Positions 9,422 to 41,372 of a stretch of 64,000 bases of DNA are shown here, piece after piece. The stretch spans positions 23,086-87,085 of the forward strand of contig JAERSO010000102.1 in NCBI GenBank assembly GCA_016845585.1, written 5' to 3'. The notes below the pieces were generated by a model, which made no database searches, had not been told where the DNA came from, and worked only from the letters and a program-made list of their open reading frames with translations. Origin of the DNA: Acidimicrobiaceae bacterium (GTDB lineage Bacteria > Actinomycetota > Acidimicrobiia > Acidimicrobiales > Aldehydirespiratoraceae). How positions within the stretch are numbered: the stretch's first letter is position 1; each line of letters opens with the position of its first letter. The translations under genes and the position numbers were made by a program.

Positions 9422-9430
9422 GCTGACGCA

Positions 9431-9754
9431 ATGAGCGACGCACCAGAAGGCTGGACATTCACCGACTCCGGGAGCATGGCCTGGCAGGTCGTGGGCGAAG
9501 GCGTGGCCATGAAGGCGCTCGGCGCGGCCGACGGCCGCATGATCGCAACGTTCCAGTTCCAGCCCGGTTACGTGGGTGGCGCCCATCAACACGGCGAGCC
9601 CGAGTTCTCCTACATCCTCGAAGGCTCGCTGATCTCCCAGGGGGTACTCATGACGGCCGGTCACGCCTATGCCGCGCAATCCGGCACCGCCCACGACGAC
9701 TTCCGCACCGAGACGGGCTGCACGCTCGTCTCGGTCTTCGCAGTTCCCGGCTGA
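9431..9754 (+). CDS. Cupin domain protein
   Basis: GAHQHGEPEFSYILEG ... GTAHD cupin motifs. Confidence 0.8.
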   Translation: MSDAPEGWTFTDSGSMAWQVVGEGVAMKALGAADGRMIATFQFQPGYVGGAHQHGEPEFSYILEGSLISQGVLMTAGHAYAAQSGTAHDDFRTETGCTLVSVFAVPG

Positions 9755-9769
9755 GCCGTCCGGGCCACG

Positions 9770-10329: not shown

Positions 10330-11519
10330 CTCAGCTCGGCTGCGAGGAAACGCCCGATCACGTCGATCGCCTCCGCCATGTGCTCGCGACCGTCAGGGCC
10401 GTTGTAGTAGTGGGTCGCCCCTCGCACCACGTGCAGCTGCTTGCGATCGTGTACCACGGATGCGTGGAGCCGCTCGGTGTGGCTCGGAGTGCATGCGTCG
10501 TCCGCGGAGTTGCCCACGACCAGGACCGGAACCGAGATCTGTGCCCCGGCAGTGATGGCGTCGCAGCGCGCATCGTCGTAGCTCCATTGGCTGAGCCAGC
10601 TCCGCAGACTGCAGAACCGGGCGAGGCCGACGGGACCGTCGTTCACCACCTTCGGATCGCCGAGGTAGCACGTGCCCGGAGCGCGATCACTGGGCTCGAT
10701 CGCCGGGTCGAGCCATCGCGGATCGGCCATGGTGCCATGGACGGTGAACGCGAATTCCTGGTTCGGGCTGGCCGACGCCCGGATCTCGCCCAGCTTGTCC
10801 CTTACCCACGCCGTGATGCGGCGGTTGCGCGCGATCTGTGCCTCCCTGAATCGGGCGACGTACTCCGGGCCGTAGGGTGGCTGGTTCGGGTTCGCCGGGT
10901 CGTAGAGGTTGAGCTCCGGATCCCGCACGTGGGGTCGAGTCTCGTCGTGAATGGAGGGATCCAACCACTCGGTGAAGATCCGGTGTCGACTCACGTGCGA
11001 CGCCAACATCAGCAGCGCATCAGCCGGCGGGATGCGGCTCGGGTCCACCGTGTACGGATCCCCGGCCGCGGTATCGGAGATCCCCTCCCCCGCCTCGGCC
11101 AGAGCCTGATACCACATGGACAAGGAGCCTCCGCCCGACCATCCGGCCAGCACGATCCTCGAATAGCCGAGCCGATCCTTGGCGTCGCAGATGGCTTCGC
11201 CGAGATCGGCGGCCACCTTCTCCATGATCAACGCGTAGTCGGCGCCCCGGTACCGGGAGTTGGCCCACAGCACGTGGTGGCCCGCGGCAGCCAACCCGCG
11301 GACCATCGGCAGGTACATCCCACCGCCCACCGGATGCATGAAGACGATGAGCGTGTCGGAGGGGGTGTCCACCGGCCGGATCAGGTGGCAGTCGAGTCCC
11401 ACCACCGCACCGCCGCCGCCGTACACGTCGCTGTAGGTGGCGCTTTCCTTGAACCCGACCGCGTACGCGATGCGCTCACAGCCACGCGGGGTTCCCGGCG
11501 TCGACGTCTGCTCGGCCAT
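10326..11519 (-). CDS. Alpha/beta hydrolase
   Basis: AGWSGGGS nucleophile elbow, NSADD acid, GATHYY histidine. Confidence 0.85.
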   Translation of the reverse strand: MAEQTSTPGTPRGCERIAYAVGFKESATYSDVYGGGGAVVGLDCHLIRPVDTPSDTLIVFMHPVGGGMYLPMVRGLAAAGHHVLWANSRYRGADYALIMEKVAADLGEAICDAKDRLGYSRIVLAGWSGGGSLSMWYQALAEAGEGISDTAAGDPYTVDPSRIPPADALLMLASHVSRHRIFTEWLDPSIHDETRPHVRDPELNLYDPANPNQPPYGPEYVARFREAQIARNRRITAWVRDKLGEIRASASPNQEFAFTVHGTMADPRWLDPAIEPSDRAPGTCYLGDPKVVNDGPVGLARFCSLRSWLSQWSYDDARCDAITAGAQISVPVLVVGNSADDACTPSHTERLHASVVHDRKQLHVVRGATHYYNGPDGREHMAEAIDVIGRFLAAELS

Positions 11520-26775: not shown

Positions 26776-27690
26776 ATGACCGGGCAACTCCCACCACTAC
26801 TCGGACTGGAGGCCTTCGAGGTCTCGGCTCGCTACGAGAGTTTCGCCGCGGCAGCGACCGAACTCGCCGTGTCCCAGTCCACGGTCAGCCATCGCATTCG
26901 CTCGCTGGAGGCGTATCTCGGCCATCGACTCTTCGAGCGGCTCCCCCGCGGGGTTCGGCTCACCGAGCGGGGCCGGGCCTACCTCCCGTCGGTTCGTGAT
27001 GCGTTCGAACAGGTCCTGGGATCGACGGCCGGCGTCTTCGGACAGCCGACCAGAGTCCGTCTCACGATGCGCGCCCCTGTGGCCTACAACGCCCTCTGGC
27101 TGCCGCCGTTCGTCGACCGATTCACCGCTGAGCACCCCAACATCGAGATCACGTTGACCAGCTCGATCTTCACCGCGATGCTGAGCGCCGAGGACGTCGA
27201 CCTGGAGCTCTGGCTCGGCAGCGGGAGCTGGCCCGGGTTCCAGAACGAGCTGCTCTTCAACGATCCCTTGATCGTCGTCGCCTCGCCGCGGACCGCCGAC
27301 ACGCTGGTCGACGGCTCCGACCTCGACGAGGTCATCCGGCAGCCGGTCGCCCATGTGATGGGGAGCGAGGATCATTGGGCGAACCTGTTGAGTCTCGTCT
27401 CACGGGAGCGACCCGATGTCGCCCGCGACGTCCGCGTCGACACGAGCATCGTCTCCCTCGGCCAAGTCCTCGCCACGGAGCGGATCGCGTTGGCCCCACG
27501 CCGGCTGGTCGAGACGTTGATTCGACGAGGCGACCTCGTTCAACTCCTCGATGTCGAGGTCGCCCCCGTCGAGAGTCTCTACCTCACCGTTCCGCAGCGC
27601 GACACGAGGGCGAAGGCCCAGGCCCTTCTCTTCCGAGACTGGCTCCTGGAACGCGGTCGTCCCGAAAGCGCTGGTTCCCCCCCGCCGTGA
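26776..27690 (+). CDS. LysR-family regulator (GcvA-like)
   Basis: LPPLLGLEAFEVSARYESFAAAATELAVSQSTVSHRIRSLE...LFERLPRGVRLT; divergent from the PhyH-HpbD operon. Confidence 0.92.
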   Translation: MTGQLPPLLGLEAFEVSARYESFAAAATELAVSQSTVSHRIRSLEAYLGHRLFERLPRGVRLTERGRAYLPSVRDAFEQVLGSTAGVFGQPTRVRLTMRAPVAYNALWLPPFVDRFTAEHPNIEITLTSSIFTAMLSAEDVDLELWLGSGSWPGFQNELLFNDPLIVVASPRTADTLVDGSDLDEVIRQPVAHVMGSEDHWANLLSLVSRERPDVARDVRVDTSIVSLGQVLATERIALAPRRLVETLIRRGDLVQLLDVEVAPVESLYLTVPQRDTRAKAQALLFRDWLLERGRPESAGSPPP

Positions 27691-27716
27691 CCATGCGCCG
27701 ACTAGCGTCGGCGGCA

Positions 27717-30700
27717 ATGGGGAACCACAGTGGTGCGGACGCGTCGACGGTGGAGGCAGTGGAGCACGTTGTCGCTCACGCCCGCGCTTCTGGCGGCGAT
27801 CAAGCGGGAGTCGACGAGGCATACCTCCGGTGCTATTTCGCACATATCGACGAGAACGACCTGGCGGATCGAGCGCCCGGCGATCTCTTCGGCCTCGCCG
27901 CCGATCACGCGCAGCTCGCCGCGGATTGGACGCGCGGCACGACGGCCATCTCGGTCGTCAACCCGCGGATCGACGTCGATGGATGGGAGAACTCCCGCAC
28001 CGTCGTGATGCTGGTGGCCGACGATATGCCCTTCATCGTCGATTCGGTGACCAACGAGTTGAGCCGGATGAACCTCGGCATACATCTCGTCGTGCACCCC
28101 ATTCTCACCGACCTGCGCCAGGACGGCGGAGGGTTCGCCGACCCCCGAGACCACCCGGACGTGATTCACCGCAACGCCTCGTTCATGTCGATCGAGGTCG
28201 ATCGGCAGCTGGAGGCGGAGTCCCGCGCCGCGATCGAAGCGGGCTTGGATCGGGTACTGGACGACGTCGCCGCCGCGATCGACGACTGGGCCGCCATGAG
28301 GGACCGGATGTTGGAGATCGCCGACGGCCTGTCGTCCGAGCCCATTCCGCGATCGCCCGAGGAGGTCGGCGACACCCAGGAGTTGCTCGATTGGCTCAGC
28401 AACGACCACTTCGTCTTCCTCGGGTACCGCGAGTACACACTCGACGGCGACCTCCTGGGCGCAGACCCCGCCACGGGACTCGGCATTCTCCGCACCACTC
28501 CCGAGACGGCACCCCAGCCCCGGCTCCTCAGTGAGATGGCCCCGCGCGCCGCCGCCCTCGCTCGAGCTCCGGAGTTGTTGAACATCACGAAGGCGAGGGC
28601 CAAGTCGACCGTTCACCGAGCCGCGCACCTCGACTACATCGGCATCAAGATGTTCAATGACGACGGCGAGGTCACCGGTGAGCGGCGGTTCCTCGGCCTG
28701 CTCACCGCGGAGGCCTACACCAGACCCACGTCACAGATTCCGATCCTGCGGCGCCTGGTGGCCGAAGTCGTCCAGCGCTCCGGGTTCCCCCCGAACGGGC
28801 ACGATCAGAAGCGACTGATCACGATTCTCGAGGAGTACCCGCGCGACGAACTCTTCCAGATCAGTGTCGACCAATTGTTCGACACGGCGATGGCGATCGC
28901 CCGTCTCCAGGAACGTCGCCGGGTCCGGCTGTTCGCTCGTCCCGAGCTCTTCGGCCGGTTCGTGACCTGCATGGTCTACATGCCACGCGATCGCTACAAC
29001 ACGGATTCCCGAACGGGGATCCAGGACCTGCTTCTCGACGCCTACGGCGGTACCCACGCCGACTGGAGCACCGATATCTCCGAAAGCGTGCTCGCGCGCA
29101 CGATCTTCCACATACGGGTCGACGATGGTGTCGTCAACGAGGTCGACACCGCCGAGCTCGAAGCGAAGATCGAGGAGATCGTCCGTGACTGGCAGGACGA
29201 TCTCATCGCCGAACTCCTGCGCGATTTCGGTGACGATCATGGCGCGGCCATCGCCCAGCGCTACGCCGAGGCGTTCGCGGTCGACTACCGCGAAGCCTTC
29301 ACCCCCCGAGCTGCAGCCGCCGACGTGCACCAGCTCGAGGACCTTCGTGACAACGGTGAACTCCACCTGAGTGTGTACCGAGAACCGGGGCAGCCGCGCA
29401 ACGCGTTCAAGATCAAGCTCTACCGAAGTGGAGAACAACTCTCACTGACGTCGGTGATGCCCATTCTCAACAACCTCGGCGTGACGGTGCTCGACGAGCG
29501 ACCGTACGAGGTCCGGCCGAACGACGCCGACTCGATCTGGGTGTACGACTTCGCCCTCGAGTCGCCCGCGGACTCACTCGACTTCGCACAGGTCTCCGCT
29601 CTGCTCGCCGAGACATTCGATGCCGTGTGGCGCGGCGATGTCGCCAACGACGGGTTCAACCGCTTGGTTCTGGGCGCAGCGATGGGGCCCCGCGAGGTCT
29701 GGGTGTTGCGCGCCTACTCCCGCTACCTCCAACAGACCCGCGTTGCCCACAGCCAGCTCTTCGTCGAGCAGACACTCGTCGAGCACGCCGACGCGGCCCG
29801 CCTCCTGGTCGAGTTGTTCGAGGCCCGGTTCGACCCGGCCGGCGACGACGGCACCCGGTACGACCGTATGGAGCCGCTGAGTCGGGCGTTCTTCGAGCTC
29901 GTGGACGAGATCAGCAGCCTCGACCAGGACCGAGTCCTGCGCCGCTTCCACAATCTGATCGAGAGCACCCTGCGGACCAACTGCTACCAGACCATCGACG
30001 GAGCGTCGCCGCCCTACCTTGCGTTCAAGCTCGACCCGAAGACGATCACCGATCTGCCCGAACCACGGCCGAAGTACGAGATCTACGTCTATTCCCCACG
30101 CTTCGAGGGCGTCCATCTGCGCTCCGGCACGGTCGCTCGTGGCGGATTGCGATGGTCGGATCGCCTCGACGACTACCGCACCGAGGTGCTCGGCCTGGTC
30201 AAGGCCCAGATGGTCAAGAACGCGGTCATCGTTCCGTCCGGGGCCAAGGGTGGGTTCGTGCTCAAACGAGCGCCCACCGATCCCGCGGAGCTGCGTGAGG
30301 AGGTCGTCACCTGCTACCAGCTGTTCGTGTCGGCCCTGCTGGATCTCACCGACAATCTCGTCGATGACGCGGTGATCCCTCCCGAGGACACGGTCCGCTA
30401 CGACGGTGACGACACCTACCTCGTCGTGGCCGCCGACAAGGGGACGGCCACGTTCTCCGACATCGCCAACGAGCTCGCGATCAACCGGGGTATGTGGCTC
30501 GGCGACGCGTTCGCGTCGGGCGGCTCCAACGGGTACGACCACAAGGCGATGGGAATCACGGCCCGGGGCGGCTGGGAGTCCGTGAAGCGCCACTTCCGCG
30601 AGCTCGGCCGCAACATCCAGGAGGAGCCGTTCACGGCCGTCGGGATCGGCGACATGTCGGGCGACGTGTTCGGCAACGGAATGCTGCTCTCGCCGTTCAC

Positions 30701-32537
30701 CCGCCTCATCGCGGCCTTCGACCACCGCCATGTGTTCGTCGACCCCGACCCCGACCCCGCGCCGTCGTTCGCCGAGCGGCAGCGGCTCTTCGACGTCCCC
30801 CGCTCGAACTGGGCCGACTACGACGAGTCGCTGATCTCCGACGGTGGCGGCATCTTCCCCCGCACGGCCAAGTCGATCGAGATCACGCCCCAGATGCGCG
30901 ACGCGCTCGGGATCGATGCGAAGACCGGCTCGCTCACTCCTGAGCAACTGATCTCCGCTGTCCTGTGGGCACCCGTCGAACTGCTCTGGAACGGAGGCAT
31001 CGGCACCTACATCAAGGCCAGCCACGAGTCGCATGCCGATGTCGGCGACAAGGCCAATGATGCGATCCGCATCGACGGACGCGATCTTCGAGTGAGCGTC
31101 CTCGGCGAGGGCGGCAATCTCGGGGTCACCCAGCTGGGCCGAATCGAATTCGCCTCCAATGGGGGTCGCATCTACACCGACGCCATCGACAATGCCGGGG
31201 GCGTCGACTGCTCGGACCATGAGGTCAACATCAAGATCCTCCTCGATCAGGTCACGGCCGCAGGCGACATGACCGAGAAGCAGCGCAACGAGTTGCTCGA
31301 GGAGATGACGGACGAGGTCGCCGCACTGGTCCTCGCCAACAACTACAGCCAGACGCAAGCCCTGAGTACCGCTCGGTCCGAGGCGGCCAGCATGGCGGAC
31401 GTGCACGCCCGCTATCTGTCGTCGCTCGAGAGCCAGGGCCTGATCGATCGCCGGCTCGAAGGGCTCCCCGACGTCGAGACCATGGCCGACCGCATGCTCG
31501 CGGCGAACGGACTCACGACACCGGAACTCGCCGTGCTGCTCGCGTACACGAAGAACATCGTGAGCGATGCGCTGCTCGAATCAGATGTGCCGGACGACGC
31601 GACCTTCGAGCGAATCCTCGTCGACTACTTCCCGACCGCAATGCGCGATCGCTACGCCGCCGAGATCAGGAGCCACCGCCTTCGGCGCGAGATCATCGCC
31701 AATCGCATCGCGAATCTCGTGGTCGATCGAGCAGGCATGTCGATGGCGTACCGCCTCGGCCAGGAGACCTCCGCTCCCACCCACGACGTCGCCGCGGCGC
31801 ATATGGCGGTGTGGCAGATCTTCGAGCTCGACGGCCTCAGCACGGCGGTCAATCAGCTGGACGGGCAGCTGCCTGTGGTCCGCCAGCTCGCGGCGCATCT
31901 CTCCGCCCGCCAACTCGCCGAACGGGCCACCCGTCTCATGCTTCGGAGTCACCCCTATCCGTTCTCGGCCGCCGATGCCGTCGCAGATCTCGCCGAGCCG
32001 GTCCAGGCGATCCTCGGCGGCCTTCCCGACTTCCTTCAAGGCGCCGATCTCACGGCCTTCGAGCAACTGGCCGTCGAGCTCGAGGCGGATGGCATGCCAG
32101 CCGAGCTGGCGCGCCGAGTGGCAGCCCTGTCTCCATCGATCGCCGCGCTCGACATCGTCGGCGTGTCGGCGCAGACCGGCACGCCCACCAACACCGCCGC
32201 CTCCGTTCATTTCGCCATCGCCGACCACCTCGAGCTGAACTGGCTGCGAGACCGCATCCTGGCCCTGCCCCGCGACACGCAGTGGTCATCGCTCGCCCGA
32301 CTCACCCTCCGCGGTGATCTCTACGCCGACCATCGCGAGCTCACGACGCAGATCGTCGACAATGACGCCCAGGCCGACGCCACCGAGCTCGTTGCCCGGT
32401 GGATGGCCCACAACACGGGGCCGGTCGAGTACTTCCGCCGCACCATCACCGACATCCGTGCCGCCGGTCCAACTGATCTGACGACCCTGCTCGTCGCCGC
32501 TCGCGAGCTGCGGAACCTGATCTCGCGGACCACCTGA
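27717..32537 (+). CDS. gdh: Large NAD-specific glutamate dehydrogenase (about 1600 aa)
   Basis: DDMPFIVDSV, EGVHLR, RGGLRWSDR, KAQMVKNAVIVPSGAKGGF, VAADKGTATFSD, GIGDMSGDVFGNG, DAIDNAGGVDCSDHEVNIKI. Confidence 0.95.
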   Translation: MGNHSGADASTVEAVEHVVAHARASGGDQAGVDEAYLRCYFAHIDENDLADRAPGDLFGLAADHAQLAADWTRGTTAISVVNPRIDVDGWENSRTVVMLVADDMPFIVDSVTNELSRMNLGIHLVVHPILTDLRQDGGGFADPRDHPDVIHRNASFMSIEVDRQLEAESRAAIEAGLDRVLDDVAAAIDDWAAMRDRMLEIADGLSSEPIPRSPEEVGDTQELLDWLSNDHFVFLGYREYTLDGDLLGADPATGLGILRTTPETAPQPRLLSEMAPRAAALARAPELLNITKARAKSTVHRAAHLDYIGIKMFNDDGEVTGERRFLGLLTAEAYTRPTSQIPILRRLVAEVVQRSGFPPNGHDQKRLITILEEYPRDELFQISVDQLFDTAMAIARLQERRRVRLFARPELFGRFVTCMVYMPRDRYNTDSRTGIQDLLLDAYGGTHADWSTDISESVLARTIFHIRVDDGVVNEVDTAELEAKIEEIVRDWQDDLIAELLRDFGDDHGAAIAQRYAEAFAVDYREAFTPRAAAADVHQLEDLRDNGELHLSVYREPGQPRNAFKIKLYRSGEQLSLTSVMPILNNLGVTVLDERPYEVRPNDADSIWVYDFALESPADSLDFAQVSALLAETFDAVWRGDVANDGFNRLVLGAAMGPREVWVLRAYSRYLQQTRVAHSQLFVEQTLVEHADAARLLVELFEARFDPAGDDGTRYDRMEPLSRAFFELVDEISSLDQDRVLRRFHNLIESTLRTNCYQTIDGASPPYLAFKLDPKTITDLPEPRPKYEIYVYSPRFEGVHLRSGTVARGGLRWSDRLDDYRTEVLGLVKAQMVKNAVIVPSGAKGGFVLKRAPTDPAELREEVVTCYQLFVSALLDLTDNLVDDAVIPPEDTVRYDGDDTYLVVAADKGTATFSDIANELAINRGMWLGDAFASGGSNGYDHKAMGITARGGWESVKRHFRELGRNIQEEPFTAVGIGDMSGDVFGNGMLLSPFTRLIAAFDHRHVFVDPDPDPAPSFAERQRLFDVPRSNWADYDESLISDGGGIFPRTAKSIEITPQMRDALGIDAKTGSLTPEQLISAVLWAPVELLWNGGIGTYIKASHESHADVGDKANDAIRIDGRDLRVSVLGEGGNLGVTQLGRIEFASNGGRIYTDAIDNAGGVDCSDHEVNIKILLDQVTAAGDMTEKQRNELLEEMTDEVAALVLANNYSQTQALSTARSEAASMADVHARYLSSLESQGLIDRRLEGLPDVETMADRMLAANGLTTPELAVLLAYTKNIVSDALLESDVPDDATFERILVDYFPTAMRDRYAAEIRSHRLRREIIANRIANLVVDRAGMSMAYRLGQETSAPTHDVAAAHMAVWQIFELDGLSTAVNQLDGQLPVVRQLAAHLSARQLAERATRLMLRSHPYPFSAADAVADLAEPVQAILGGLPDFLQGADLTAFEQLAVELEADGMPAELARRVAALSPSIAALDIVGVSAQTGTPTNTAASVHFAIADHLELNWLRDRILALPRDTQWSSLARLTLRGDLYADHRELTTQIVDNDAQADATELVARWMAHNTGPVEYFRRTITDIRAAGPTDLTTLLVAARELRNLISRTT

Positions 32538-32610: not shown

Positions 32611-33657
32611 ATGGAGCCGCCGACCTCGAAGCTAACCGATCTGCGGGTTCGACTCGTCGGAACGGAGTCGTCTCCGCGGGTGGGCAGCCTTGCTCGACCC
32701 CTCCGGCCGGTCCTCCGGCCGATGATCCGCAAACTCTTCAGCGTCGATGTCCGCGGTCTCGAGAACCTCCCGGTGTCCGGTCCGGCGATTCTCAGTCCGA
32801 ACCATCGCTCGTTCTTCGATTCGCCACTCTTGATGATCATGGCGCCGCGGCCAGTGGTGTTCCTCGGCAAGGCCGAGTACATGGACAGCGCGAAGACGAA
32901 GTACCTGTTCCCCGCATTCGGCATGGTGCCGATCAAGCGCGAGGCACAACGAGCGTCGATGGCGGCGCTCGACACCGCTGCGGACCTGCTGGACGAAGGC
33001 AGGCTCGTCGGGATCTATCCAGAAGGGACACGCTCGCGCGACGGAATGCTCCATCGGGGCCACACCGGTGTCACTCACTTGGCTCTGATGACGAACGCAC
33101 CGATCATCCCGGTCGGCCTCACCGGCACCGAACGGGTCCAGCCCATCGATGCTCCGCTACCACGTCCGTTCCAGGGCCCGGTCACCATGACCTTCGGTCG
33201 CGCGATACGACCAGCCGACTACCGTTTCGGCGGGAAGCGGCACCGCCGCCAGCAAATGCTCGATGACGTGATGGCCTCCGTCGCCTCGATGAGCTCGCAG
33301 ACCAGGTCACCCGACTTCGCATCCGGCGAACCGCCGCTGATCCGTGGTGGGAGCGAAACGGTGTACCGGGTCTCACGTCATGGCGCGGTCGGCTCCGGCT
33401 GGCGTCAAGCGGCGGAGCAGGCTCTGGGCGAGGCGATCGGCCAGTTCGACGACGGCCGCGTCGGAGAGGTCGCCGACCTGTCGGTCCGGGTCCTGCCATC
33501 CGGTGACATCCGGTTCGCGGCCGAGATCACCGTGTCCACGCGCTTTCGCCCGGAAGCCGCCCCCGGATCCACTGATCCGGGGCCCGGGGCGTCAACCGGA
33601 TCGAAGCGATCGAGCATTCCAGAACTGTCCAGAATAGGGAGAGGCCGACATGGCTGA
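32611..33657 (+). CDS. PlsC/lysophospholipid acyltransferase with a C-terminal dodecin-like domain
   Basis: NHRSFFD (HX4D), FLGKAE and GIYPEGTRS; residues 248-312 (nt 33352-33546) align with the adjacent dodecin. Confidence 0.85.
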   Translation: MEPPTSKLTDLRVRLVGTESSPRVGSLARPLRPVLRPMIRKLFSVDVRGLENLPVSGPAILSPNHRSFFDSPLLMIMAPRPVVFLGKAEYMDSAKTKYLFPAFGMVPIKREAQRASMAALDTAADLLDEGRLVGIYPEGTRSRDGMLHRGHTGVTHLALMTNAPIIPVGLTGTERVQPIDAPLPRPFQGPVTMTFGRAIRPADYRFGGKRHRRQQMLDDVMASVASMSSQTRSPDFASGEPPLIRGGSETVYRVSRHGAVGSGWRQAAEQALGEAIGQFDDGRVGEVADLSVRVLPSGDIRFAAEITVSTRFRPEAAPGSTDPGPGASTGSKRSSIPELSRIGRGRHG

Positions 33658-33862
33658 GAGTGTGTACCAGGTCGTCGAGTTGATCGGCTCGAGCAGCGAC
33701 TCGTGGGAGGACGCAGCGCGCAACGCGGTTCGTGAGGCGGCCAAGGTCTACCAGGATCTCCGCGTCGCGGAAGTCACCGAGATGGATGTGCTCATCGAGG
33801 ACGGGAACATCATCGCGTTCCGGACCAAGCTCCGGCTCAGCTACAAGAGCACCAACGCCTGA
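33650..33862 (+). CDS. Dodecin-family protein (70 aa)
   Basis: SVYQVVELIGSSSDSWEDAARNAV...LRVAEV...FRTKLRLSYK; GGAGAGG RBS; overlaps the upstream gene by 8 nt. Confidence 0.9.
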   Translation: MAESVYQVVELIGSSSDSWEDAARNAVREAAKVYQDLRVAEVTEMDVLIEDGNIIAFRTKLRLSYKSTNA

Positions 33863-33864
33863 TG

Positions 33865-33893
33865 GCCCTCGGCGCGTGATCCCCGAGGGTTTT
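33865..33893 (+). terminator. Probable intrinsic terminator after the dodecin gene
   Basis: GCCCTCGG-N10-CCGAGGGT stem followed by TTT, just after the stop codon. Confidence 0.5.
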
Positions 33894-33946: not shown

Positions 33947-35263
33947 ATGACCGATACCACCGAAGAACCGACGATCTTCGACCCGAACATCCGCACGCCC
34001 GAGATGGAGATGGCCGAGCTCGGAGAGGGTGTTCCCGCCGCGGCCGACCTCGCGCTCGAGGACATCAACCCGCTCAATGCGCACCTCTTCAAGGAGGACC
34101 GCTGGCAGGACCACTTCGCTCGCCTCCGCGCCGAGGATCCCGTCCACTTCAACGAACTCGAGACAGCCGGCCGATTCTGGTCGGTCACCAAGTACGACGA
34201 CGTCCGCGCGGTCGACGGCGACTGGAAGACCTACTCCTCGGCCCGTGGCATCACCCTCGGCCTGAAGCGCAGTCCGGAGGTCGATCGAATGACCACCAGC
34301 GCCACCTCGTTCATCTCCATGGATCCACCCACACACACCGAACAGCGCAAAACCGTCCGGAGTGTTTCCGCGCCGTCCAATCTGCGAAACATCGAGCCGC
34401 TGATCCGCGAGCGCACCATCAGCGTCCTCGACTCGCTCCCGGACGGTGAGACCTTCGACTGGGTCGACACCGTCTCCATCGAACTCACGACGCTGCTTCT
34501 CGCCACCCTCTTCGACTTCCCCCTCGAGGATCGCCGCAAGCTCACTCGCTGGTCCGACATCGTCTTCGCCATCCCGGAACCCGGAGGCGTCGTCGAGACG
34601 CAGCAACAAAAGATCGACGAGATGCTCGAGATGGTCGGCTACTTCGAGGGCCTCTGGGCCGAGCGTCGCAAGAACCCCGGATTCGACCTCGTTTCCATGC
34701 TGGCCAATGGTGAGGCCACCAAAGACATGCCCACGATGGCGCACCTCGGCAACCTCCTGTTGTTGATCGTCGGCGGCAACGACACCACTCGCAACACCAT
34801 GTCGGGCAGCGTGTACGGGCTCAACAAGTTCGGCGATCAGTACGACAAGCTCATCGCCGACCCGGGGCTCGTTCCGAAGATGGTGCCGGAGATCATCCGG
34901 TGGCAGACGCCGCTGTCCTACATGCGCCGCACGGCCACCTGCGACACCGAACTCGGCGGGAAGCAGATCCGCAAGGACGACCAGGTCCTCATGTGGTACA
35001 TCTCCGCGAACCAGGACGAAGACGTCTTCACCAACGCCGAGGTGATCGACATCGATCGCCACAACGCCGACCGGCAGCTCTCGTTCGGCTACGGCATCCA
35101 CTTCTGTATGGGAAGCCGCTTGGCCGAGCTCCAGCTCCGGATTCTGTGGGAGGAAGTGCTGGCGCGCTTCGAACGCGTCGAGGTTCAAGACGAGCCCGAG
35201 CGCACCTTCTCGTCGTTCGTGCACGGCTATGCCACGCTCCCGGTGAAGGTCACCCGGAAGTGA
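33947..35263 (+). CDS. Cytochrome P450, CYP153 (alkane omega-hydroxylase)-like
   Basis: FISMDPPTH, DWVDTVSIELTT, LGNLLLLIVGGNDTTRN (CYP153 I-helix), EIIRWQTPLSYMRR, FGYGIHFCMG heme cysteine. Confidence 0.88.
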   Translation: MTDTTEEPTIFDPNIRTPEMEMAELGEGVPAAADLALEDINPLNAHLFKEDRWQDHFARLRAEDPVHFNELETAGRFWSVTKYDDVRAVDGDWKTYSSARGITLGLKRSPEVDRMTTSATSFISMDPPTHTEQRKTVRSVSAPSNLRNIEPLIRERTISVLDSLPDGETFDWVDTVSIELTTLLLATLFDFPLEDRRKLTRWSDIVFAIPEPGGVVETQQQKIDEMLEMVGYFEGLWAERRKNPGFDLVSMLANGEATKDMPTMAHLGNLLLLIVGGNDTTRNTMSGSVYGLNKFGDQYDKLIADPGLVPKMVPEIIRWQTPLSYMRRTATCDTELGGKQIRKDDQVLMWYISANQDEDVFTNAEVIDIDRHNADRQLSFGYGIHFCMGSRLAELQLRILWEEVLARFERVEVQDEPERTFSSFVHGYATLPVKVTRK

Positions 35264-35291: not shown

Positions 35292-36959
35292 TCAGCTCGT
35301 GGCCTGGTCCTCCACCGGGATCGCCACCCGGGCCGTTCGTTTCGCGAAGTAGAAGATCCGGCGCAGGTTGGCGATGACGTCCGTTTCGAACCGGTAGAGC
35401 TCGATTCGATTCGCCTCGTCGGCGGTCAGCCGTGCCGCATAGTGCTCGGCGATGACCTGGGCCTTCGCATCCACATCGTCCTTCATCGCGCCGACCTGGC
35501 GAGCATCTTCCTCGTTGGCTTGCACGAGGGCGGCGATGGCCAGATCGAGGGCCTGGCTGACCTGCCCATGGAACTCCTCGATCATGCGACGGGTCTCGTC
35601 GCTGACCTGGAGGTCGTTGGCCAGCCGATCGAGGCCGAGTGTGACCAGGTTGGTCTCGATGAGGTCACCGATGGCCTCGAGGTTGTTCGTGGCCTCCATG
35701 AGGCGCATGAGCTGTTGCGTGGAGCCTGCACTCAGCGACCGTTGTCCGACCCGGCCCAGGTACAGGATGATCTGTCCATGGAGGTCGTCGACCTCGTCAT
35801 CGAGATCCCTCACCGCCTTCAGGGCCTCGGCAGGGCCATCGAGGATCGCCGGCAAGACGTCCCGGAGCATGACGCCGACCCGGTTGGTCATGCGCAGCAG
35901 TTCGAGCCTGGCCCGTTCGAGCGCGATCGTCGGCGTCTTCAGGAGCGAATCGTCGAGATACTTGAGCCGGATCGGCTCCGCTTCGGGGTGGTCCGGCACG
36001 AATCGAGTGACGACCTGCTCGAGCTGCCGCACCAGGCCGAGAAAGACGACCGTGTTGACGACGTTGAAGATGGTGTGGGCGTTGGCGATCTGACGGGCGA
36101 GAGGACCACCGATCGACTCGACCACTCCCGCCAGTATCCCCACCAGAGGAATCCAGATGAGGGCACCCATCAGGTTGAAGACCGTGTGAACCGCGGCCGC
36201 GCGAGCCGCCTCCGGTGGCTTGCCGATCGCCGCGAGCTGGGCCGTGACCGAGGTGCCGACGTTGGCGCCGAGCACCAGCGCGATCCCGGCCTCCGGGCTG
36301 ATGAGCCCTTCGCTCGCCAACACGATCACGATGCCCGTCGTCGCTGACGAAGACTGGACGAGCGCGGTGAACACCAGACCGACGAGAACCGCGAGGAGCG
36401 GGTTCTTCATCGCCGCCAGGAGATCGATGAAGGGTTCGTATGACCGAAGCGGCTCCATGGCAGCTCCCATCACCGACATGCCGAAGAAGATCAGCCCGAG
36501 GCCCATGATCAGGTTGCCCTGTACGGTTCGCCGATCCGTCTTGGCGAAGAAGGCCAGCCCGTAGCCGACGGCCACGATCAGGAGCGCATAGCGCGCCACG
36601 GAGAACGCCACGACCTGGGCGGTGATCGTGGTGCCGACATTGGCTCCGAGAATCACGGGAATCGCCTGGCTGAGGCTCAGCACGCCCGACGAGATGAAGC
36701 CCACGACGAGAACGGTCGTGACCGACGACGACTGGATGACCGCCGTGACGCCGGCGCCCGAGGCCGCACCCAGGAATCGGTTCCGGGTCATGCGTGCGAG
36801 GGCAAACCGAATTCGACTACCGGCGGCGACTCGCAGGGCCCCCGTCATTCGATCCATCCCGAACAGGAAGATCGCCAGGCCGCCGAACAAGCCGGTGACC
36901 ACGATGAACCAATCGATCGCTTCGCCGGGATCGATCGCCGCATCCACAGCGGCAAGCAT
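35292..36959 (-). CDS. Na+/Pi cotransporter with PhoU-like C-terminal domains
   Basis: GGLAIFLFGM; QSSS twice; GANVGT twice; helical C-terminus with NLEAIGD. Confidence 0.92.
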   Translation of the reverse strand: MLAAVDAAIDPGEAIDWFIVVTGLFGGLAIFLFGMDRMTGALRVAAGSRIRFALARMTRNRFLGAASGAGVTAVIQSSSVTTVLVVGFISSGVLSLSQAIPVILGANVGTTITAQVVAFSVARYALLIVAVGYGLAFFAKTDRRTVQGNLIMGLGLIFFGMSVMGAAMEPLRSYEPFIDLLAAMKNPLLAVLVGLVFTALVQSSSATTGIVIVLASEGLISPEAGIALVLGANVGTSVTAQLAAIGKPPEAARAAAVHTVFNLMGALIWIPLVGILAGVVESIGGPLARQIANAHTIFNVVNTVVFLGLVRQLEQVVTRFVPDHPEAEPIRLKYLDDSLLKTPTIALERARLELLRMTNRVGVMLRDVLPAILDGPAEALKAVRDLDDEVDDLHGQIILYLGRVGQRSLSAGSTQQLMRLMEATNNLEAIGDLIETNLVTLGLDRLANDLQVSDETRRMIEEFHGQVSQALDLAIAALVQANEEDARQVGAMKDDVDAKAQVIAEHYAARLTADEANRIELYRFETDVIANLRRIFYFAKRTARVAIPVEDQATS

Positions 36960-37827: not shown

Positions 37828-39864
37828 TCAGAGCGATTGGCAGAGGCGACGCGCTTCGAAGATCGATGCGGCGATGCCGCGGCTGGCCACGGCGTCCCCG
37901 ACTCGGTACAGCGCACAGCCGTCACCGCGCTCGGGTTGCTGCTCGCCGGCGACCAGGGCGTGGATGTCGAGGACACCATCGTTTGCCGACGAATCCCGCA
38001 GCGTGAGATAGAGGTCATCGTCGGGTATGACGCCGTGCTCGGTCACCACGGAATCGACGAGGCGTTCCGTCTCGAGGCGGGTGAACACGTTTCGTAGCAC
38101 CGCGCAGAGTCGGCCCCCGGACCGCTCGACGCGGACCAGGGAGTGGTCGGGGGTCATCCGGACATCGTTCTCGTAGAGCATGCGCAGATAGGCGGGGCCC
38201 GTGGTGGCGGCCAGATCCTGAGCCACGAGACGGTCCGGCGTGACGAGTTCGATCGGCCCGACGTCACGATCCGCCAGGTACTCCACCACGGATGGGGCGT
38301 GTTCGCGCCCGTTGTCGTCATACACCAACACATCGCCACTGATCGCCACGTGACCACCGAGAACGTCCCAGGACGTGTGAACGAGCTCCGCTCCCCCGTC
38401 CAGGAAACTCGTGTCCGGCCATCCGCCGGTCGCCACGATCACGACATCGGGCGCCTCGGCCGCAACCTCGACCGCGTCGACGGGCGAGTTCAACCGCACA
38501 TCCACACCGAGATGGCCGAGTTCCTCCCCCAACCATCCCACGATGCCGAGCAACTCGGCCTGACGCTCGCTCGCCCGGGCGGCGAGCACGACCTGACCAC
38601 CGACACGATCCTGCGCCTCGAACAGCACGACGCGATGGCCCCGCTCGGCGAGAACCCGAGCCGACTCGAGCCCGGCGGGGCCCGCCCCGATGACCACCAC
38701 CTTCTTGCCCGGCGCCGCCGAGACCGGCACCAGCTGCGGAATGTGTGTCTCGCGCCCGGTCGCAGGATTCTGGATACACACCGAATCCAGGCCCTGGTGG
38801 AGACGATTGATGCACTCCGAGGCACCGACGCACACGCGGACCCGTTCGGCTTCGCCGCGTTCGAGCTTGGCGACGATGTGCGGATCGGCGATGTGGGCCC
38901 GGGTCATCCCCGCCAGGTCGATCAATCCGGAGCTGATGGCGTGCCGGGCCGATGCGAGATCGGTGATGCGAGCCGCGTGGAGCACGGGCAGATCGATCAA
39001 TCGTTTGATGGAAGCGGCCAGCGGCACATACGGCATCAGCGGGGTGCCCGACGGCGGGATGGCCCTGGACAGGCCCTCCTCGGTCGCCAGCGACGATCCC
39101 GCGACATTGACGAAGTCCAGCAGGCCCGACGCGGCCAACCGCAGCGCGATGTCGGCGCTCTCGGCAGTGCTGAGCCCGCCGATCTGATCCTCGTCACCGA
39201 TCATGCGGATTCCGACGAGCAGATCGGTGCCCGTGGCCTCACGAATCGACTGCAGCACCTCGATGGTGAAACGCAGTCTGTTCTCGATCGAGCCGCCGTA
39301 CTCGTCGGTTCGACGGTTCGACAAGGGCGTCCAGAACTGGTCGATCAGGTGGCTGGTGGCACACAGTTCGATGCCGTCGAGTCCTCCGGCCCGCCCCCGA
39401 ACCGCCGCCGCGCCGAAGTCGTCGACGACGCGACGGATGTCGGACTTCTCCATCTCCTTGGGCCAACCGCGGTGCATCGGCTCGCGGATTGGTGACGGCG
39501 CGATCGTCGGCAACCAGTCACCATCGTTGGAGACATTCCGCCGGCCCATGTGGGTGACCTGGCACATCACGGCGGCACCATGCCGATGGATCCGATCGGT
39601 CATCTCGGACAGCGGGTCGATGATCGCGTCGGAACCGAAGTACATCTGACCCCACAGCGATGCCGAGTCAGGCGAGACATTGCTCGACCCGCCGATCATG
39701 GTGAGCCCGATGCCGCCCTTGGCCTTCTCCTCGTGGTACGCGATGTAGCGCTCATTGGGGGTGCCGTCGGTGTTGTAGCCGGGCGCATGGCTGCTCGAGA
39801 AGATGCGGTTCCTGAGCGTCAACTGCCCGATGGTGAAGGGCTCGAGAAGCGGATCGGTGCTCAT
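37828..39864 (-). CDS. stcD: OYE-family NADH:flavin oxidoreductase, N-methylproline demethylase (StcD/HpbA)-like
   Basis: MSTDPLLEPF..LRNRI..SH, YHEEKAKGG, HLIDQF, CVGASECI (Fe-S), CIQNPATGRE, IGAGPAGLE, RVGDAVASR. Confidence 0.72.
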   Translation of the reverse strand: MSTDPLLEPFTIGQLTLRNRIFSSSHAPGYNTDGTPNERYIAYHEEKAKGGIGLTMIGGSSNVSPDSASLWGQMYFGSDAIIDPLSEMTDRIHRHGAAVMCQVTHMGRRNVSNDGDWLPTIAPSPIREPMHRGWPKEMEKSDIRRVVDDFGAAAVRGRAGGLDGIELCATSHLIDQFWTPLSNRRTDEYGGSIENRLRFTIEVLQSIREATGTDLLVGIRMIGDEDQIGGLSTAESADIALRLAASGLLDFVNVAGSSLATEEGLSRAIPPSGTPLMPYVPLAASIKRLIDLPVLHAARITDLASARHAISSGLIDLAGMTRAHIADPHIVAKLERGEAERVRVCVGASECINRLHQGLDSVCIQNPATGRETHIPQLVPVSAAPGKKVVVIGAGPAGLESARVLAERGHRVVLFEAQDRVGGQVVLAARASERQAELLGIVGWLGEELGHLGVDVRLNSPVDAVEVAAEAPDVVIVATGGWPDTSFLDGGAELVHTSWDVLGGHVAISGDVLVYDDNGREHAPSVVEYLADRDVGPIELVTPDRLVAQDLAATTGPAYLRMLYENDVRMTPDHSLVRVERSGGRLCAVLRNVFTRLETERLVDSVVTEHGVIPDDDLYLTLRDSSANDGVLDIHALVAGEQQPERGDGCALYRVGDAVASRGIAASIFEARRLCQSL

Positions 39865-41372
39865 CTCTGAACGTCCTTGGGGATCTCGGTCATGCGGCGG
39901 GAAACATAGTCGAGCAGCTCCTCCTCGACCGCAGTGTCGATCGGTGGTTTCTCGTACTCGCCCAGGAGCGCGTCGACACGTTCGAATCCGATCCGCTCGG
40001 TGTCCTTCGAACCCGCCTCCTCCCACTGTTCAAAGCTGGTCTGATCCATCACCTCGGGCATGTGGAAGGCCATCGTGTAGTTGGCGACCGTGTGGGCGGC
40101 CCCGAGATAGTGACCCTGGGGCCCGACCTCGCGAACCGCAGCCATGGCATCGGCGAAGTCGTCGAGCCTGGGCCCCTGTGCATAACGGATCCATCCTGCT
40201 GCGATGTCACTGTCGGTCACGTACTTGGCCAGGTTGGCCGTCAACCCGTGTTCCATCCATCCGCCGCAGTGCGTGATCAGGTTGATCCCGCCCAGAATCG
40301 ACGCATGCATGTTCATGTTGGCTTCGTACCCGGCCTGGGCGTCGAGCTTCTTCGAACCGGTGTGCATCCCCACGCTGCGGACCGGGAGCCCATAGAAGCG
40401 GGCGAGCTGCCCCGCCATGAGCAACATGTGAGCGAGGTCGGGCGTACCGGTCATCGGCGAACCCGTGCGCATGTCGACGATCATCAGGAACATGCCGTAG
40501 ATCGTCGGTGAGCCAGGGTTGATCGCCTGTGTGAACGCGCAACCGGCGAGAGCCTCCGCGTTGAGTTGGGCGATGCCCCCGACCGTGCTGGCCGGCGTGT
40601 TCGCTCCCGCGAGCGCAAACGGCGAGTAGTAGACGGGTTGCCCCGCCCGGGCGTAGACCATCGCCGCACCGAGCATCGACTCGTCCCACACGAGCGGCGA
40701 GTTGCCGTTCATGAAGCCGGTGATGACCGCGTTGTTCGCGACCGACTCCGAACCATGCACGATCCTCGCCATCGCAAGCGTGTCCTCGGCCTGCTCGGCG
40801 CCCTGGCAGGAGCCGATGCTTATCTTGTCGGTGAACCGCATCGAATCGGCGTAGTACGCCAGGTGACGATGCGGGATGTCGACGTCTGTCGCCTCGCAGT
40901 GGAAGCCACCGGCGATGTTGATCGTCGCGAGTTGGTGGCTGAGCTTGATGCAGGTGATGTTGTCGCCACGGGTGGCATAGCGCCTCGACCCGTCGCGGTC
41001 GAGGAAGAACGGGGCTCCCGAGACGGGCGACATGGCCAGGTTCCGCCCGCCGATCTCGACCGACTGCGCCGAATTCCGGGCGTGCAGGGTGAACTGTGAG
41101 GGCGCACGGGATATCAGGTCCATCAGCAACTCGCGGCCGATCCGCACACGACTGTCGTCGACCTCGGCTCCCGCTTCGCGCCACACGTCGAGAGCGGGGC
41201 CGTAGCGGAACTCGATGCCGACCTCCTCCAGGATTCGCATGGAGCCGTCGTGAACCATCTCGACGGTCTCTCGAGGGAGCAACTCGTAGAGGGGGATCTT
41301 CCGCTCCAGCGAGATCGGCACCGTCGCGGAATCAGCAGAGCGGTCTCGGCGCCGCCGCACCCGCGAACTCAT
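39861..41372 (-). CDS. Trimethylamine methyltransferase (MttB) superfamily, non-pyrrolysine
   Basis: SMRILEEVGIEF, NGNSPLVWD, NAEALAG, VDMRTGSP, SKKLDAQAGYE, HCGGWME, EVGPQGHYLG; no in-frame TAG. Confidence 0.9.
   Translation of the reverse strand: MSSRVRRRRDRSADSATVPISLERKIPLYELLPRETVEMVHDGSMRILEEVGIEFRYGPALDVWREAGAEVDDSRVRIGRELLMDLISRAPSQFTLHARNSAQSVEIGGRNLAMSPVSGAPFFLDRDGSRRYATRGDNITCIKLSHQLATINIAGGFHCEATDVDIPHRHLAYYADSMRFTDKISIGSCQGAEQAEDTLAMARIVHGSESVANNAVITGFMNGNSPLVWDESMLGAAMVYARAGQPVYYSPFALAGANTPASTVGGIAQLNAEALAGCAFTQAINPGSPTIYGMFLMIVDMRTGSPMTGTPDLAHMLLMAGQLARFYGLPVRSVGMHTGSKKLDAQAGYEANMNMHASILGGINLITHCGGWMEHGLTANLAKYVTDSDIAAGWIRYAQGPRLDDFADAMAAVREVGPQGHYLGAAHTVANYTMAFHMPEVMDQTSFEQWEEAGSKDTERIGFERVDALLGEYEKPPIDTAVEEELLDYVSRRMTEIPKDVQR

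What the first reader, a model, noticed from the sequence alone, without database searches (positions are those of the whole stretch)
32611..33893. Acyltransferase-dodecin fusion coupled to a stand-alone dodecin without flavin residues: possible cage-scaffolded acyltransferase
Seen: the PlsC-type acyltransferase (HX4D, YPEGTRS) has an extra C-terminal segment, residues 248-312 (SETVYRVSRHGAVGSGWRQAAEQALGEA...DGRVGEV...F..EITVS). By hand it aligns to the next gene's dodecin (AESVYQVVELIGSSSDSWEDAARNAVREA...DLRVAEV...F..KLRLS) with 20 of 66 identities and one 1-residue gap. The genes overlap by 8 nt and are followed by a terminator-like hairpin. Both copies lack the canonical flavin-binding Trp, Arg and Gln (xWFEV is RVAEV/RVGEV here). 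Established: dodecins form hollow dodecamers, and bacterial ones such as Thermus thermophilus dodecin bind flavin and CoA; PlsC enzymes use acyl-CoA or acyl-ACP. Inference: free and fused dodecins co-assemble into a mixed cage that displays, clusters or CoA-regulates the acyltransferase. I do not know of this architecture being described.
Basis: partly seen in the sequence, partly recalled or inferred. Interest (0 to 1): 0.8.

Follow-up and report, generated by a model that had tools for sequence, protein, structure and literature searches.

The report
Acyltransferase fused to dodecin, beside free dodecin
A lipid acyltransferase in a marine actinobacterium ends in a diverged copy of the small cage-forming protein dodecin and is always followed by a gene for free dodecin, which looks like a natural form of the mixed dodecin scaffolds that engineers build.

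Summary
ORF 32611-33657 (348 aa) is an LPLAT/PlsC-family acyltransferase. Its residues 248-312 are a real but diverged dodecin domain. Pfam and BLASTP miss it in this copy. Profile-profile comparison finds it (98.7%, E 2e-16; 30 shuffles E >= 0.077). The AlphaFold model shows beta-alpha-beta-beta, and Foldseek matches M. tuberculosis calcium dodecin Rv0379 (3ONR, TM 0.83, rmsd 1.4 A).

The next gene (33650-33862, 8-nt overlap) is a free dodecin of the same non-flavin type (RVAEV where flavin dodecins have WFEV). This type is widespread in the phylum and is not unusual in itself.

The fusion was found only in the window's order: 7 of 107 genomes of its family and 6 of 401 in the order sample. 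It was not found in 400 further class or 400 further phylum genomes. In 11 of 11 assessable genomes a free dodecin lies directly downstream, and no other neighbour is conserved.

A modelled trimer of two free subunits and one fused domain passes its controls (0.73 against 0.00). Engineered mixed dodecamers are published. Co-assembly is therefore supported but unproven. A cage and CoA regulation are untested.

A second dodecin fusion, to a USP-like domain, also sits beside a free dodecin. Verdict: a new variant of a known kind, of moderate to high interest.

The parts
32611..33657 (+). Gene for the acyltransferase-dodecin fusion protein (348 aa plus stop).
   Evidence: ORF. The N-terminal 37 residues that the gene caller left off (P0001 is 311 aa) are conserved in homologues and modelled as helices 7-16 and 28-42.
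32743..33120 (+). LPLAT/PlsC acyltransferase core (residues 45-170). HX4D lies at 32803-32820 and YPEGTRS at 33016-33036.
   Evidence: PF01553 scores 104.2 bits against a cut-off of 23. The motif residues are invariant in 60 homologues. The best fold match is T. maritima PlsC 5kym_A, E 7.4e-11.
33328..33351 (+). Conserved linker EPPLIRGG (residues 240-247) joining the enzyme to the dodecin-like domain.
   Evidence: P242 and G247 are invariant, and P241, L243, I244, R245 and G246 are at least 90% conserved in 60 homologues. In the 11 fused domains of A4, which span three families, E5, R10, G11 and G12 are invariant.
33352..33546 (+). Fused, diverged dodecin-fold domain (residues 248-312), of the non-flavin type (RVGEV).
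   Evidence: hhalign 98.7%, E 2e-16, with shuffle controls. AF2 gives strand 250-261, helix 264-278, strand 282-294, strand 300-311. Foldseek matches 3onr_A at E 3.3e-5, TM 0.83, rmsd 1.4 A, 31% identity. The fused-domain profile has 3onr as its only significant PDB sequence hit, E 5.3e-6.
33547..33654 (+). Variable, probably disordered C-terminal tail (residues 313-348).
   Evidence: pLDDT is below 50 for residues 316-347. Its length and sequence are not conserved among homologues.
33637..33644 (+). Shine-Dalgarno-like GGGAGAGG, 5 nt before the dodecin ATG and inside the end of the acyltransferase gene.
   Evidence: Read directly from the sequence. That it acts as a ribosome-binding site is inference.
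33650..33862 (+). Gene for the free dodecin (70 aa plus stop), Rv0379 type (RVAEV). It overlaps the acyltransferase gene by 8 nt.
   Evidence: PF07311 scores 77.4 bits against a cut-off of 22.5. The best PDB sequence match is 3onr_A, E 9.6e-13. It is the only PF07311 match in the genome.
33864..33893 (+). GC-rich hairpin followed by TTTT, just after the dodecin stop codon. It may be a weak terminator.
   Evidence: Folds at -20.4 kcal/mol, but z = -1.49. Not called by the terminator scan.

Best explanation
This is a two-gene operon. Gene 1 encodes an accessory LPLAT/PlsC-family acyltransferase. A conserved EPPLIRGG linker continues its C-terminus into a diverged dodecin-fold domain of the non-flavin Rv0379 type. 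Gene 2 encodes a highly conserved free dodecin of the same subfamily.

Shown: the homology, the fold, the strict pairing of the two genes and their co-divergence.

Inferred: the fused domain takes a subunit position in dodecin-type trimers, and probably dodecamers, built mainly from the free protein. It would do so by the same strand-to-strand pairing that holds dodecin trimers together (its RVGEV strand against the neighbour's EMDVLI strand). The free protein would then supply the scaffold, and the enzyme would be held on it in few copies. This would be a natural counterpart of engineered heterododecamers, in which wild-type dodecin dilutes a fused cargo.

Unknown: the acyl acceptor, and any small ligand of the particle (Ca2+, CoA).
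For: Homology and fold:
- hhalign 98.7%, E 2e-16, over 64 columns. 30 shuffled controls reach at most 0.7%.
- A plain HMM of 120 free dodecins hits the fused domains of four other genomes at E 1.8e-9 to 2.7e-6.
- tblastn cross-hits between free dodecin and fused domains give 33-40% identity.
- AF2 gives beta-alpha-beta-beta. Foldseek finds 3onr and about 20 other dodecin entries at TM about 0.8.
- Pfam Dodecin is reached above its cut-off in a relative (29.3 bits against 22.5), in 3 of 11 fused domains and in 4 of 60 full proteins at E <= 0.01.

Pairing:
- The fusion occurs in 7 of 107 family genomes and 6 of 401 order genomes.
- A free dodecin lies directly downstream in 11 of 11 assessable genomes.
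- None of the 14 other window genes compared (20-46 kb) lies within 16 kb of the pair in five other genomes.
- Of the 120 listed homologues, 119 keep the domain.

Co-divergence:
- The fused domains form one group (100/99) and their free partners one clade (95/94), with similar sub-groupings.
- Pairwise identities of fused and free correlate (Spearman 0.68 over 45 pairs; related genomes inflate this).

Complex:
- Two free subunits plus one fused domain score ipSAE 0.73, against 0.00 for the best of 3 controls. The three runs share at least 87% of contacts and the partner's pLDDT is at least 71.
- That mark was reached by 58 of 80 solved complexes and 2 of 110 mismatched pairs.
- The invariant DDxRVG of the fused domain lies in the predicted interface.

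Precedent:
- Dodecin termini are surface-exposed. Heterododecamers of fused and wild-type M. tuberculosis dodecin form in vivo from polycistronic expression (passages of bioRxiv 10.1101/2020.03.19.990861).
- Rv0379 is reported as dodecameric (passage of PMC12431886 citing Arockiasamy 2011).
Against: - There is no experimental evidence of any kind.
- The complex pass may only reflect likeness to solved dodecin homo-oligomers.
- The fused domain evolves much faster than its partner: mean pairwise identity 48%, against 82% for the free dodecin and 66% for the catalytic domain.
- It has lost residues that are invariant in free dodecins. E10, D46 and R58 of the free protein align to R, to S (window) or mostly R, and to a variable position. 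It may therefore not make all the interfaces of a dodecamer.
- Twelve membrane-facing enzymes on a tetrahedral particle are hard to reconcile with a flat membrane. This is my inference.
- Most free dodecins of this type stand alone. None of 46 such loci has a PlsC domain within 1.5 kb.
- The 8-nt overlap is not conserved: the gap is about 30 nt in G001.
Confidence: 0.55

Rival explanations
1. The fused domain is only a self-association (homotrimerisation) module for the acyltransferase. The free dodecin forms its own particles with a separate job. The adjacency is left over from a tandem duplication followed by fusion, or reflects only shared regulation.
For: - The fused domain diverges fast (48% mean identity against 82%) and has lost several residues invariant in free dodecins. 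That fits a simpler set of interfaces.
- The fused domains sit on a long branch apart from all free dodecins.
- Free dodecins of this type mostly occur alone.
Against: - Adjacency is kept in 11 of 11 assessable genomes across at least three families, while every other neighbour changes.
- The free partners of fusion genes form their own clade.
- The heterotrimer model passes its controls.
- A second, unrelated dodecin fusion (to a USP-like domain) also sits beside a free dodecin of that clade.
Confidence: 0.22
2. The dodecin-like domain is a ligand sensor acting in cis on the enzyme. The ligand could be Ca2+, as for Rv0379, or CoA/acyl-CoA. The free dodecin would buffer the same ligand.
For: - The nearest solved relative is titled a calcium-chelating dodecin (3ONR).
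- Dodecins are described as stores for flavins and coenzyme A (passage of PMC8044443 citing Meissner 2007).
- PlsC enzymes use acyl-CoA or acyl-ACP (general knowledge).
- A DD pair is invariant in the fused domain and also present in Rv0379.
Against: - No binding site was tested. The Rv0379 paper is not held, so its calcium ligands could not be mapped.
- CoA binding is known for a flavin-type dodecin, not for this subfamily.
- Flavin-pocket residues are absent.
Confidence: 0.15
3. The extension is a non-functional relic or an assembly or gene-calling artefact.
For: - One homologue (P0108, 424 aa) shows a frameshift-like read-through into the dodecin gene.
- Pfam does not see the domain in the window's own copy.
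Against: - 119 of the 120 listed homologues keep an intact domain with invariant residues.
- It is found in 12 independent genomes, some of them single-contig assemblies.
- The fold is modelled with confidence: block-mean pLDDT of 76-94 over residues 251-310.
Confidence: 0.03

Closest known systems
Calcium dodecin Rv0379 ('SecE2', Mtb8) of Mycobacterium tuberculosis, PDB 3ONR
   Same: It is the best solved relative of both proteins. Free dodecin: E 9.6e-13. Fused domain: profile E 5.3e-6 and Foldseek TM 0.83, rmsd 1.4 A, 31% identity. It shows the same replacement of the flavin Trp motif (IRVARV against RVAEV/RVGEV) and the same DD before the strand. It is reported as dodecameric.
   Different: Rv0379 is a free 71-aa protein, and I know of no fused partner for it. 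Its calcium site could not be compared because the paper is not held.
Flavin-binding dodecins (H. salinarum 1MOG, T. thermophilus 2CZ8/2VYX, M. tuberculosis Rv1498A 2YIZ/3OQT, S. coelicolor 6R1E)
   Same: Same beta-alpha-beta-beta fold (TM about 0.8) and the same Pfam family for the free protein.
   Different: The Trp, Arg and Gln aligned in the flavin dodecins are V39, D46 and R58 in the free protein, and V, S and A in the fused domain. Genuine flavin-type dodecins (LDWFEV) occur elsewhere in the same order and are never next to the fusion. The roles of W38, R45 and R65 are recalled from the literature and from the mutant names in PDB titles.
PlsC (1-acyl-sn-glycerol-3-phosphate acyltransferase) of Thermotoga maritima, PDB 5KYM
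   Same: It is the best fold match of residues 1-230 or so (E 7.4e-11). The HX4D and PEGTR motifs are shared, as is an N-terminal helical pair.
   Different: The window protein misses NCBIfam's cut-off for AGP acyltransferase (86.7 bits against 102.95). It is one of 9 LPLAT-family matches in its genome. It carries the dodecin domain. Its substrate is unknown.
Engineered M. tuberculosis dodecin scaffold with heterododecamers (Bourdeaux et al., bioRxiv 10.1101/2020.03.19.990861; passages read)
   Same: Cargo is fused to a surface-exposed terminus. The fused subunit and the plain subunit are expressed from one polycistronic unit. Mixed dodecamers are used to thin out the cargo.
   Different: It is man-made, uses the flavin dodecin Rv1498A, and its two subunit types have identical cores. 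Here the fused core is only 25-36% identical to the free one, and assembly is not shown.

Membership tests
LPLAT / PlsC-type acyltransferases (Pfam PF01553) | Score above Pfam's gathering cut-off. | tested here: met
   104.2 bits against 23, residues 45-170. All 60 of 60 homologues match.
LPLAT / PlsC-type acyltransferases (Pfam PF01553) | Catalytic HX4D motif and the (F/Y)PEGTR motif. | tested here: met
   NHRSFFD (64-70) and YPEGTRS (136-142) are present. H65, D70 and P137-R141 are invariant in 60 sequences.
LPLAT / PlsC-type acyltransferases (Pfam PF01553) | PlsC-like fold. | tested here: met
   Foldseek 5kym_A, E 7.4e-11, TM(target) 0.66.
1-acylglycerol-3-phosphate O-acyltransferase proper (NCBIfam TIGR00530 / PRK15018) | Score above the curated cut-off; lysophosphatidate as acceptor. 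| tested here: not met
   TIGR00530 scores 86.7 bits against 102.95, and PRK15018 scores 25.2 against 501. The substrate cannot be tested with these tools.
Dodecin family (Pfam PF07311): free protein | Score above Pfam's gathering cut-off. | tested here: met
   77.4 bits against 22.5. The NCBIfam equivalog DodecBact scores 50 against 75, which is not met.
Dodecin family (Pfam PF07311): fused domain | Score above Pfam's gathering cut-off. | tested here: not met
   The window copy has no hit at E <= 1. A relative reaches 29.3 bits against 22.5. At E <= 0.01, 3 of 11 fused domains and 4 of 60 full proteins match.
Dodecin family (Pfam PF07311): fused domain | Homology to dodecins by profile comparison, and the beta-alpha-beta-beta fold. 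| tested here: met
   hhalign 98.7%, E 2e-16, with controls. AF2 topology. Foldseek finds 3onr and about 20 other dodecin entries. 3onr is the only significant PDB sequence hit.
Dodecin family | Dodecameric assembly with 23 symmetry. | not testable with these tools
   Only a trimer of two free and one fused subunit was modelled (ipSAE 0.73 against 0.00 for controls). That pass can come from likeness to solved dodecins.
Flavin-binding dodecins | Flavin-sandwiching Trp in the xWFEV strand, plus the partner Arg and Gln. | tested here: not met
   These align to V39, D46 and R58 in the free protein and to V, S and A in the fused domain. The residue roles are recalled, not read here.
Calcium dodecin (Rv0379-like) | Calcium-binding site of Rv0379. 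| not tested
   It is the closest solved relative by sequence and fold. The paper that defines the site is not held.

The most novel reading that the evidence does not exclude
Non-flavin (Rv0379-type) dodecins act as natural modular scaffolds. A strongly conserved free subunit co-assembles with diverged 'adaptor' subunits that are fused to different cargo: a PlsC-type acyltransferase here, a TT0030/USP-like domain in other Acidimicrobiales. The result would be mixed cages carrying a few copies of an enzyme or sensor, for example one fused trimer docking the particle to the membrane. That would give this orphan dodecin subfamily its first physiological role. It would also show that nature uses the heterododecamer trick that protein engineers devised.
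Probability: 0.35. Interest if true: 0.8.

Novelty: new variant of a known kind. Interest (0 to 1): 0.62.

Why it matters
Dodecins are known as small flavin-storing cages and as an engineering scaffold. The Rv0379-type branch, which includes a tuberculosis serodiagnostic antigen, has no established function. A natural enzyme-dodecin fusion kept together with a free dodecin gives a directly testable hypothesis for that branch: a scaffold or oligomerisation core, not cofactor storage.

It would also be a rare case of a lipid acyltransferase organised on a protein particle. It explains why annotation misses the architecture, since Pfam sees the domain in only 4 of 60 members. The second fusion type, to a USP-like domain, suggests the principle is general and not a one-off.

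Tried and rejected
- BLASTP of the window's fused segment against its free dodecin: no alignment at E <= 100. Pfam on residues 248-348: nothing at E <= 1. Both were superseded by profile methods.
- The search for homologous proteins restricted to residues 240-312 returned only 7 proteins, because few candidates share exact words. It gives no usable count of the family.
- The protein-atlas search on residues 236-312: best score 0.76, below the level of a lead.
- Terminator scan: none found.
- Sequencing runs: 3 DNA holders from one seawater-metagenome study, one of them possibly the source. No RNA holder is listed, so I did not lay reads.
- The Rv0379 structure paper is not held, either by DOI or by PMC id.
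- Long open frames around free dodecins in four phylum genomes looked like possible fusions. They are spurious high-GC frames.
- Tested whether free dodecins are generally linked to unfused PlsC genes: 0 of 46 loci within 1.5 kb.
- Tested whether the glutamate dehydrogenase or P450 neighbours belong to the unit. They are not conserved next to the pair.
- The table in PMC13674229 lists dodecin (1.3%) and PlsC (1.2%) among genes found near thiohistidine genes. This is only a lead. The paper does not discuss it, and its supplements were not opened.
Full report
WHAT IS THERE

The sequence shows an 8-nt overlap (ATGGCTGA) and a GGGAGAGG box 5 nt before the second ATG.

Pfam finds Acyltransferase PF01553 in residues 45-170 of the first protein (E 6e-30) and Dodecin PF07311 in the second (E 1e-21). 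It finds nothing in residues 248-348 at E <= 1.

NCBIfam places the enzyme in the LPLAT family but below every equivalog cut-off (TIGR00530: 86.7 bits against 102.95). It should therefore be called a PlsC-family acyltransferase of unknown substrate.

The gene caller behind the protein database starts the protein at M38 (P0001, 311 aa). The 37 residues before that are conserved in homologues and fold as two helices. I therefore keep the 348-aa reading.

IS THE C-TERMINAL SEGMENT A DODECIN?

- BLASTP does not find this pair.
- The segment is conserved in 119 of the 120 best homologues. The regex found 116, and three more carry small variants. P0108 has a frameshift-like read-through.
- A profile of 118 such segments against a profile of 120 free dodecins gives hhalign probability 98.7%, E 2e-16, over 64 columns.
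- 30 column-shuffled controls stay at or below 0.7% probability, with E >= 0.077.
- A plain HMM of the free dodecins hits the fused domains of four other genomes at E 1.8e-9 to 2.7e-6.
- tblastn gives cross-hits of 33-40% identity.
- The AlphaFold2 model (60-sequence alignment, mean pLDDT 82.6) shows strand 250-261, helix 264-278, strand 282-294 and strand 300-311, then a disordered tail from 316.
- Foldseek against the PDB ranks T. maritima PlsC first (E 7.4e-11). At rank 9 comes calcium dodecin Rv0379 (3onr_A: E 3.3e-5, TM 0.83, rmsd 1.4 A, 31% identity), followed by about twenty flavin-dodecin entries at TM about 0.8.
- The fused-domain profile has 3onr as its only significant PDB sequence hit (E 5.3e-6; the next hit is at 0.034).
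- In some relatives Pfam itself calls the domain: 29.3 bits against 22.5 in L030. At E <= 0.01 it matches 3 of 11 fused domains and 4 of 60 full proteins.

The domain is real but mostly below annotation thresholds.

WHAT KIND OF DODECIN?

The free protein's best solved relative is also Rv0379 (E 9.6e-13). Flavin dodecins follow at E 8e-8 to 7e-3.

In those alignments the Trp of xWFEV, the Arg after it and the Gln of HWQV align to V39, D46 and R58. That these residues bind flavin is recalled from the literature and from the mutant names in PDB titles (W38F, R45A, R65A).

This non-flavin type is not rare:
- The fused-domain profile finds 83 representatives at E <= 0.001 among 1.84 billion proteins. 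13 of them (E <= 1e-10) are fusions or fragments of fusions. Most of the rest are 70-150-aa free proteins with LRDLRVAEV.
- It matches 72 of 401 genomes of the order (E <= 0.001) and 57 of 401 of the phylum (E <= 1e-6). These tallies include the flagged genomes G147, G446 and G515.
- True flavin-type dodecins (LDWFEV) also occur in the order, but never beside the fusion.

DISTRIBUTION AND LINKAGE

Names that sources give to close homologues point to Ilumatobacteraceae / Acidimicrobiales.

- The fusion is present in 3 of 41 nearest relatives.
- It is present in 7 of 107 genomes of the family, in three genera.
- It is present in 6 of 401 genomes sampled across the order. These are G000, G419, G444, G372, G475, and G182, which is cut at a contig end. 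They span at least three further families.
- It was not found in 400 further genomes of the class at E <= 1e-12, nor in 400 further genomes of the phylum. Four suspicious long frames in the phylum sample proved spurious.
- In all 11 assessable genomes a free dodecin gene follows directly.
- In the 41 relatives, the three genomes with the fusion have their only PF07311 match right there.
- Nothing else is conserved. None of the 14 other window genes compared (20-46 kb), among them the glutamate dehydrogenase, P450 and Na/Pi transporter genes, lies within 16 kb of the pair in five other genomes.
- Two genera have a family III CoA-transferase upstream and an FMO-like monooxygenase downstream.
- The enzyme is an accessory paralogue. 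The window's genome has 9 LPLAT matches. Genomes without the fusion keep an unfused relative of about 260-290 aa at about 50% identity.

EVOLUTION

In a tree of 61 dodecin domains the fused domains form one group (100/99) on a long branch. Their free partners form one clade (95/94) with matching sub-groups. With 71 columns, deeper nodes and the root are unresolved, so I do not claim which free dodecin gave rise to the fused one.

Over 45 genome pairs, mean identity is 66% for the catalytic domain, 48% for the fused domain and 82% for the free dodecin. A fused domain is 25-36% identical to its own partner. The free protein is the most constrained part and the fused domain the least. The fused domain nevertheless keeps VY-V, DD-RVG, F and S invariant.

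DO THEY ASSEMBLE TOGETHER?

One complex job modelled two free subunits plus one fused domain, each given as an alignment. It scored ipSAE 0.73 in the median run, against 0.00 for the best of three controls. The runs agree in at least 87% of contacts and the partner's pLDDT is at least 71. The tool states that 58 of 80 solved complexes and 2 of 110 mismatched pairs reached that mark, and that the counts hold only roughly for this design.

The contacts are those of a dodecin-type trimer. Fused residues GRVGEV pair with EMDVLIEDG of one free copy. Fused residues DLSVRV pair with LRVAEV of the other. Dodecin oligomers are solved, so this pass shows that the fused domain is compatible with such an interface. 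It does not show that the domain prefers the free protein to itself.

Published engineering work supplies a precedent. Dodecin termini are exposed, and fused and wild-type M. tuberculosis dodecin form heterododecamers in vivo from bicistronic constructs, which was proposed as a way to dilute troublesome cargo (passages read).

MOST LIKELY MECHANISM

Probabilities are my judgement.
- The domain is a dodecin homologue: about 0.95.
- The two genes work together: about 0.8.
- They form hetero-oligomers: about 0.55.
- A mixed dodecameric cage specifically: about 0.4.
- CoA regulation: about 0.1.

The rivals are homo-oligomerisation only, a cis ligand sensor, and a relic. They are set out in their own section.

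A SECOND FUSION

In four other genomes of the order (L058-L061), a free dodecin of the same clade lies beside a protein of about 250 aa with an N-terminal dodecin domain (PF07311, E 1e-12 to 1e-21) and a C-terminal USP-like domain (Foldseek 2iel_A TT0030, E 4.3e-8; universal stress proteins at E about 2e-4).

In two genomes of another family the same two domains sit in the reverse order in one open frame.

Together these suggest that dodecin cores are reused as attachment modules.

NOVELTY

The literature searches were: 'dodecin' or 'Rv0379' (97 papers, 25 listed); 'calcium dodecin' (9 papers); 'dodecin' with 'acyltransferase' (6 papers); and dodecin-like, dodecin domain, dodecin fold, COG3360, PF07311 or DUF1458 (11 papers). 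None of the listed titles or abstracts describes a natural enzyme-dodecin fusion.

I read passages of five papers. Subscription papers and supplements were not searchable.

Both protein families are known. The architecture and its obligate partner gene appear to be undescribed, so I rate this a new variant of a known kind.

Noticed in passing
L058:1274-2328, L059:1877-2946, L060:1914-2981, L061:1331-2378 (genomes G398, G433, G466, G130): A second natural dodecin fusion. An N-terminal dodecin domain is joined to a C-terminal TT0030/USP-like domain in a protein of about 250 aa. It lies next to a free non-flavin dodecin that falls in the same clade as the partners of the acyltransferase fusion.
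   Followed up: partly
L053:937-1710 and L054:865-1710 (G136, G208): The same USP-like domain and a dodecin occur in the reverse order within one stop-free frame of 258/282 aa, with a possible internal start just before the dodecin. Similar long frames in G346, G423, G261, G472 and G274 were not examined.
   Followed up: partly
P0108 (424 aa): This homologue reads from the middle of the fused domain through about 100 arginine-rich residues into the downstream dodecin. It looks like a frameshift or sequencing error. It is the only listed homologue whose precomputed Pfam list holds both PF01553 and PF07311.
   Followed up: partly
P0248, P0252, P0255, P0258: These are short metagenomic proteins in which a fused-type dodecin domain follows unrelated N-terminal pieces: a GFO_IDH_MocA fragment, a bactofilin fragment, or no Pfam match. 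They may be assembly chimeras or further architectures.
   Followed up: partly
window 32611-32721: The gene call in the protein collection starts the acyltransferase at M38 (311 aa). The upstream 37 codons are conserved in relatives and modelled as helix, so the longer ORF is the likelier gene.
   Followed up: yes
window 27375-32537 (+), 33947-35263 (+), 35292-36959 (-), 37828-40026 (-): The neighbours are a large NAD-specific glutamate dehydrogenase (about 1,600 aa, eight GDH Pfam domains), a cytochrome P450, a Na/Pi cotransporter with a PhoU domain, and an Old-Yellow-Enzyme/FAD oxidoreductase fusion. None is conserved next to the pair in other genomes.
   Followed up: partly
L077:8538-9770 and 5810-7429; L079:6366-7610 and 8746-10653: In two other genera the pair is preceded, 16-20 nt upstream on the same strand, by a family III CoA-transferase. 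It is followed by a convergent FMO-like monooxygenase. This is a possible hint about the source of the acyl-CoA.
   Followed up: no
PMC13674229, table in section 7: Dodecin (COG3360, 1.3%) and PlsC (1.2%) are listed at nearly equal frequency among genes encoded near thiohistidine (NHISS) genes. This may reflect a PlsC-dodecin pair in some lineage. The paper does not comment on it, and I could not see its supplements.
   Followed up: no
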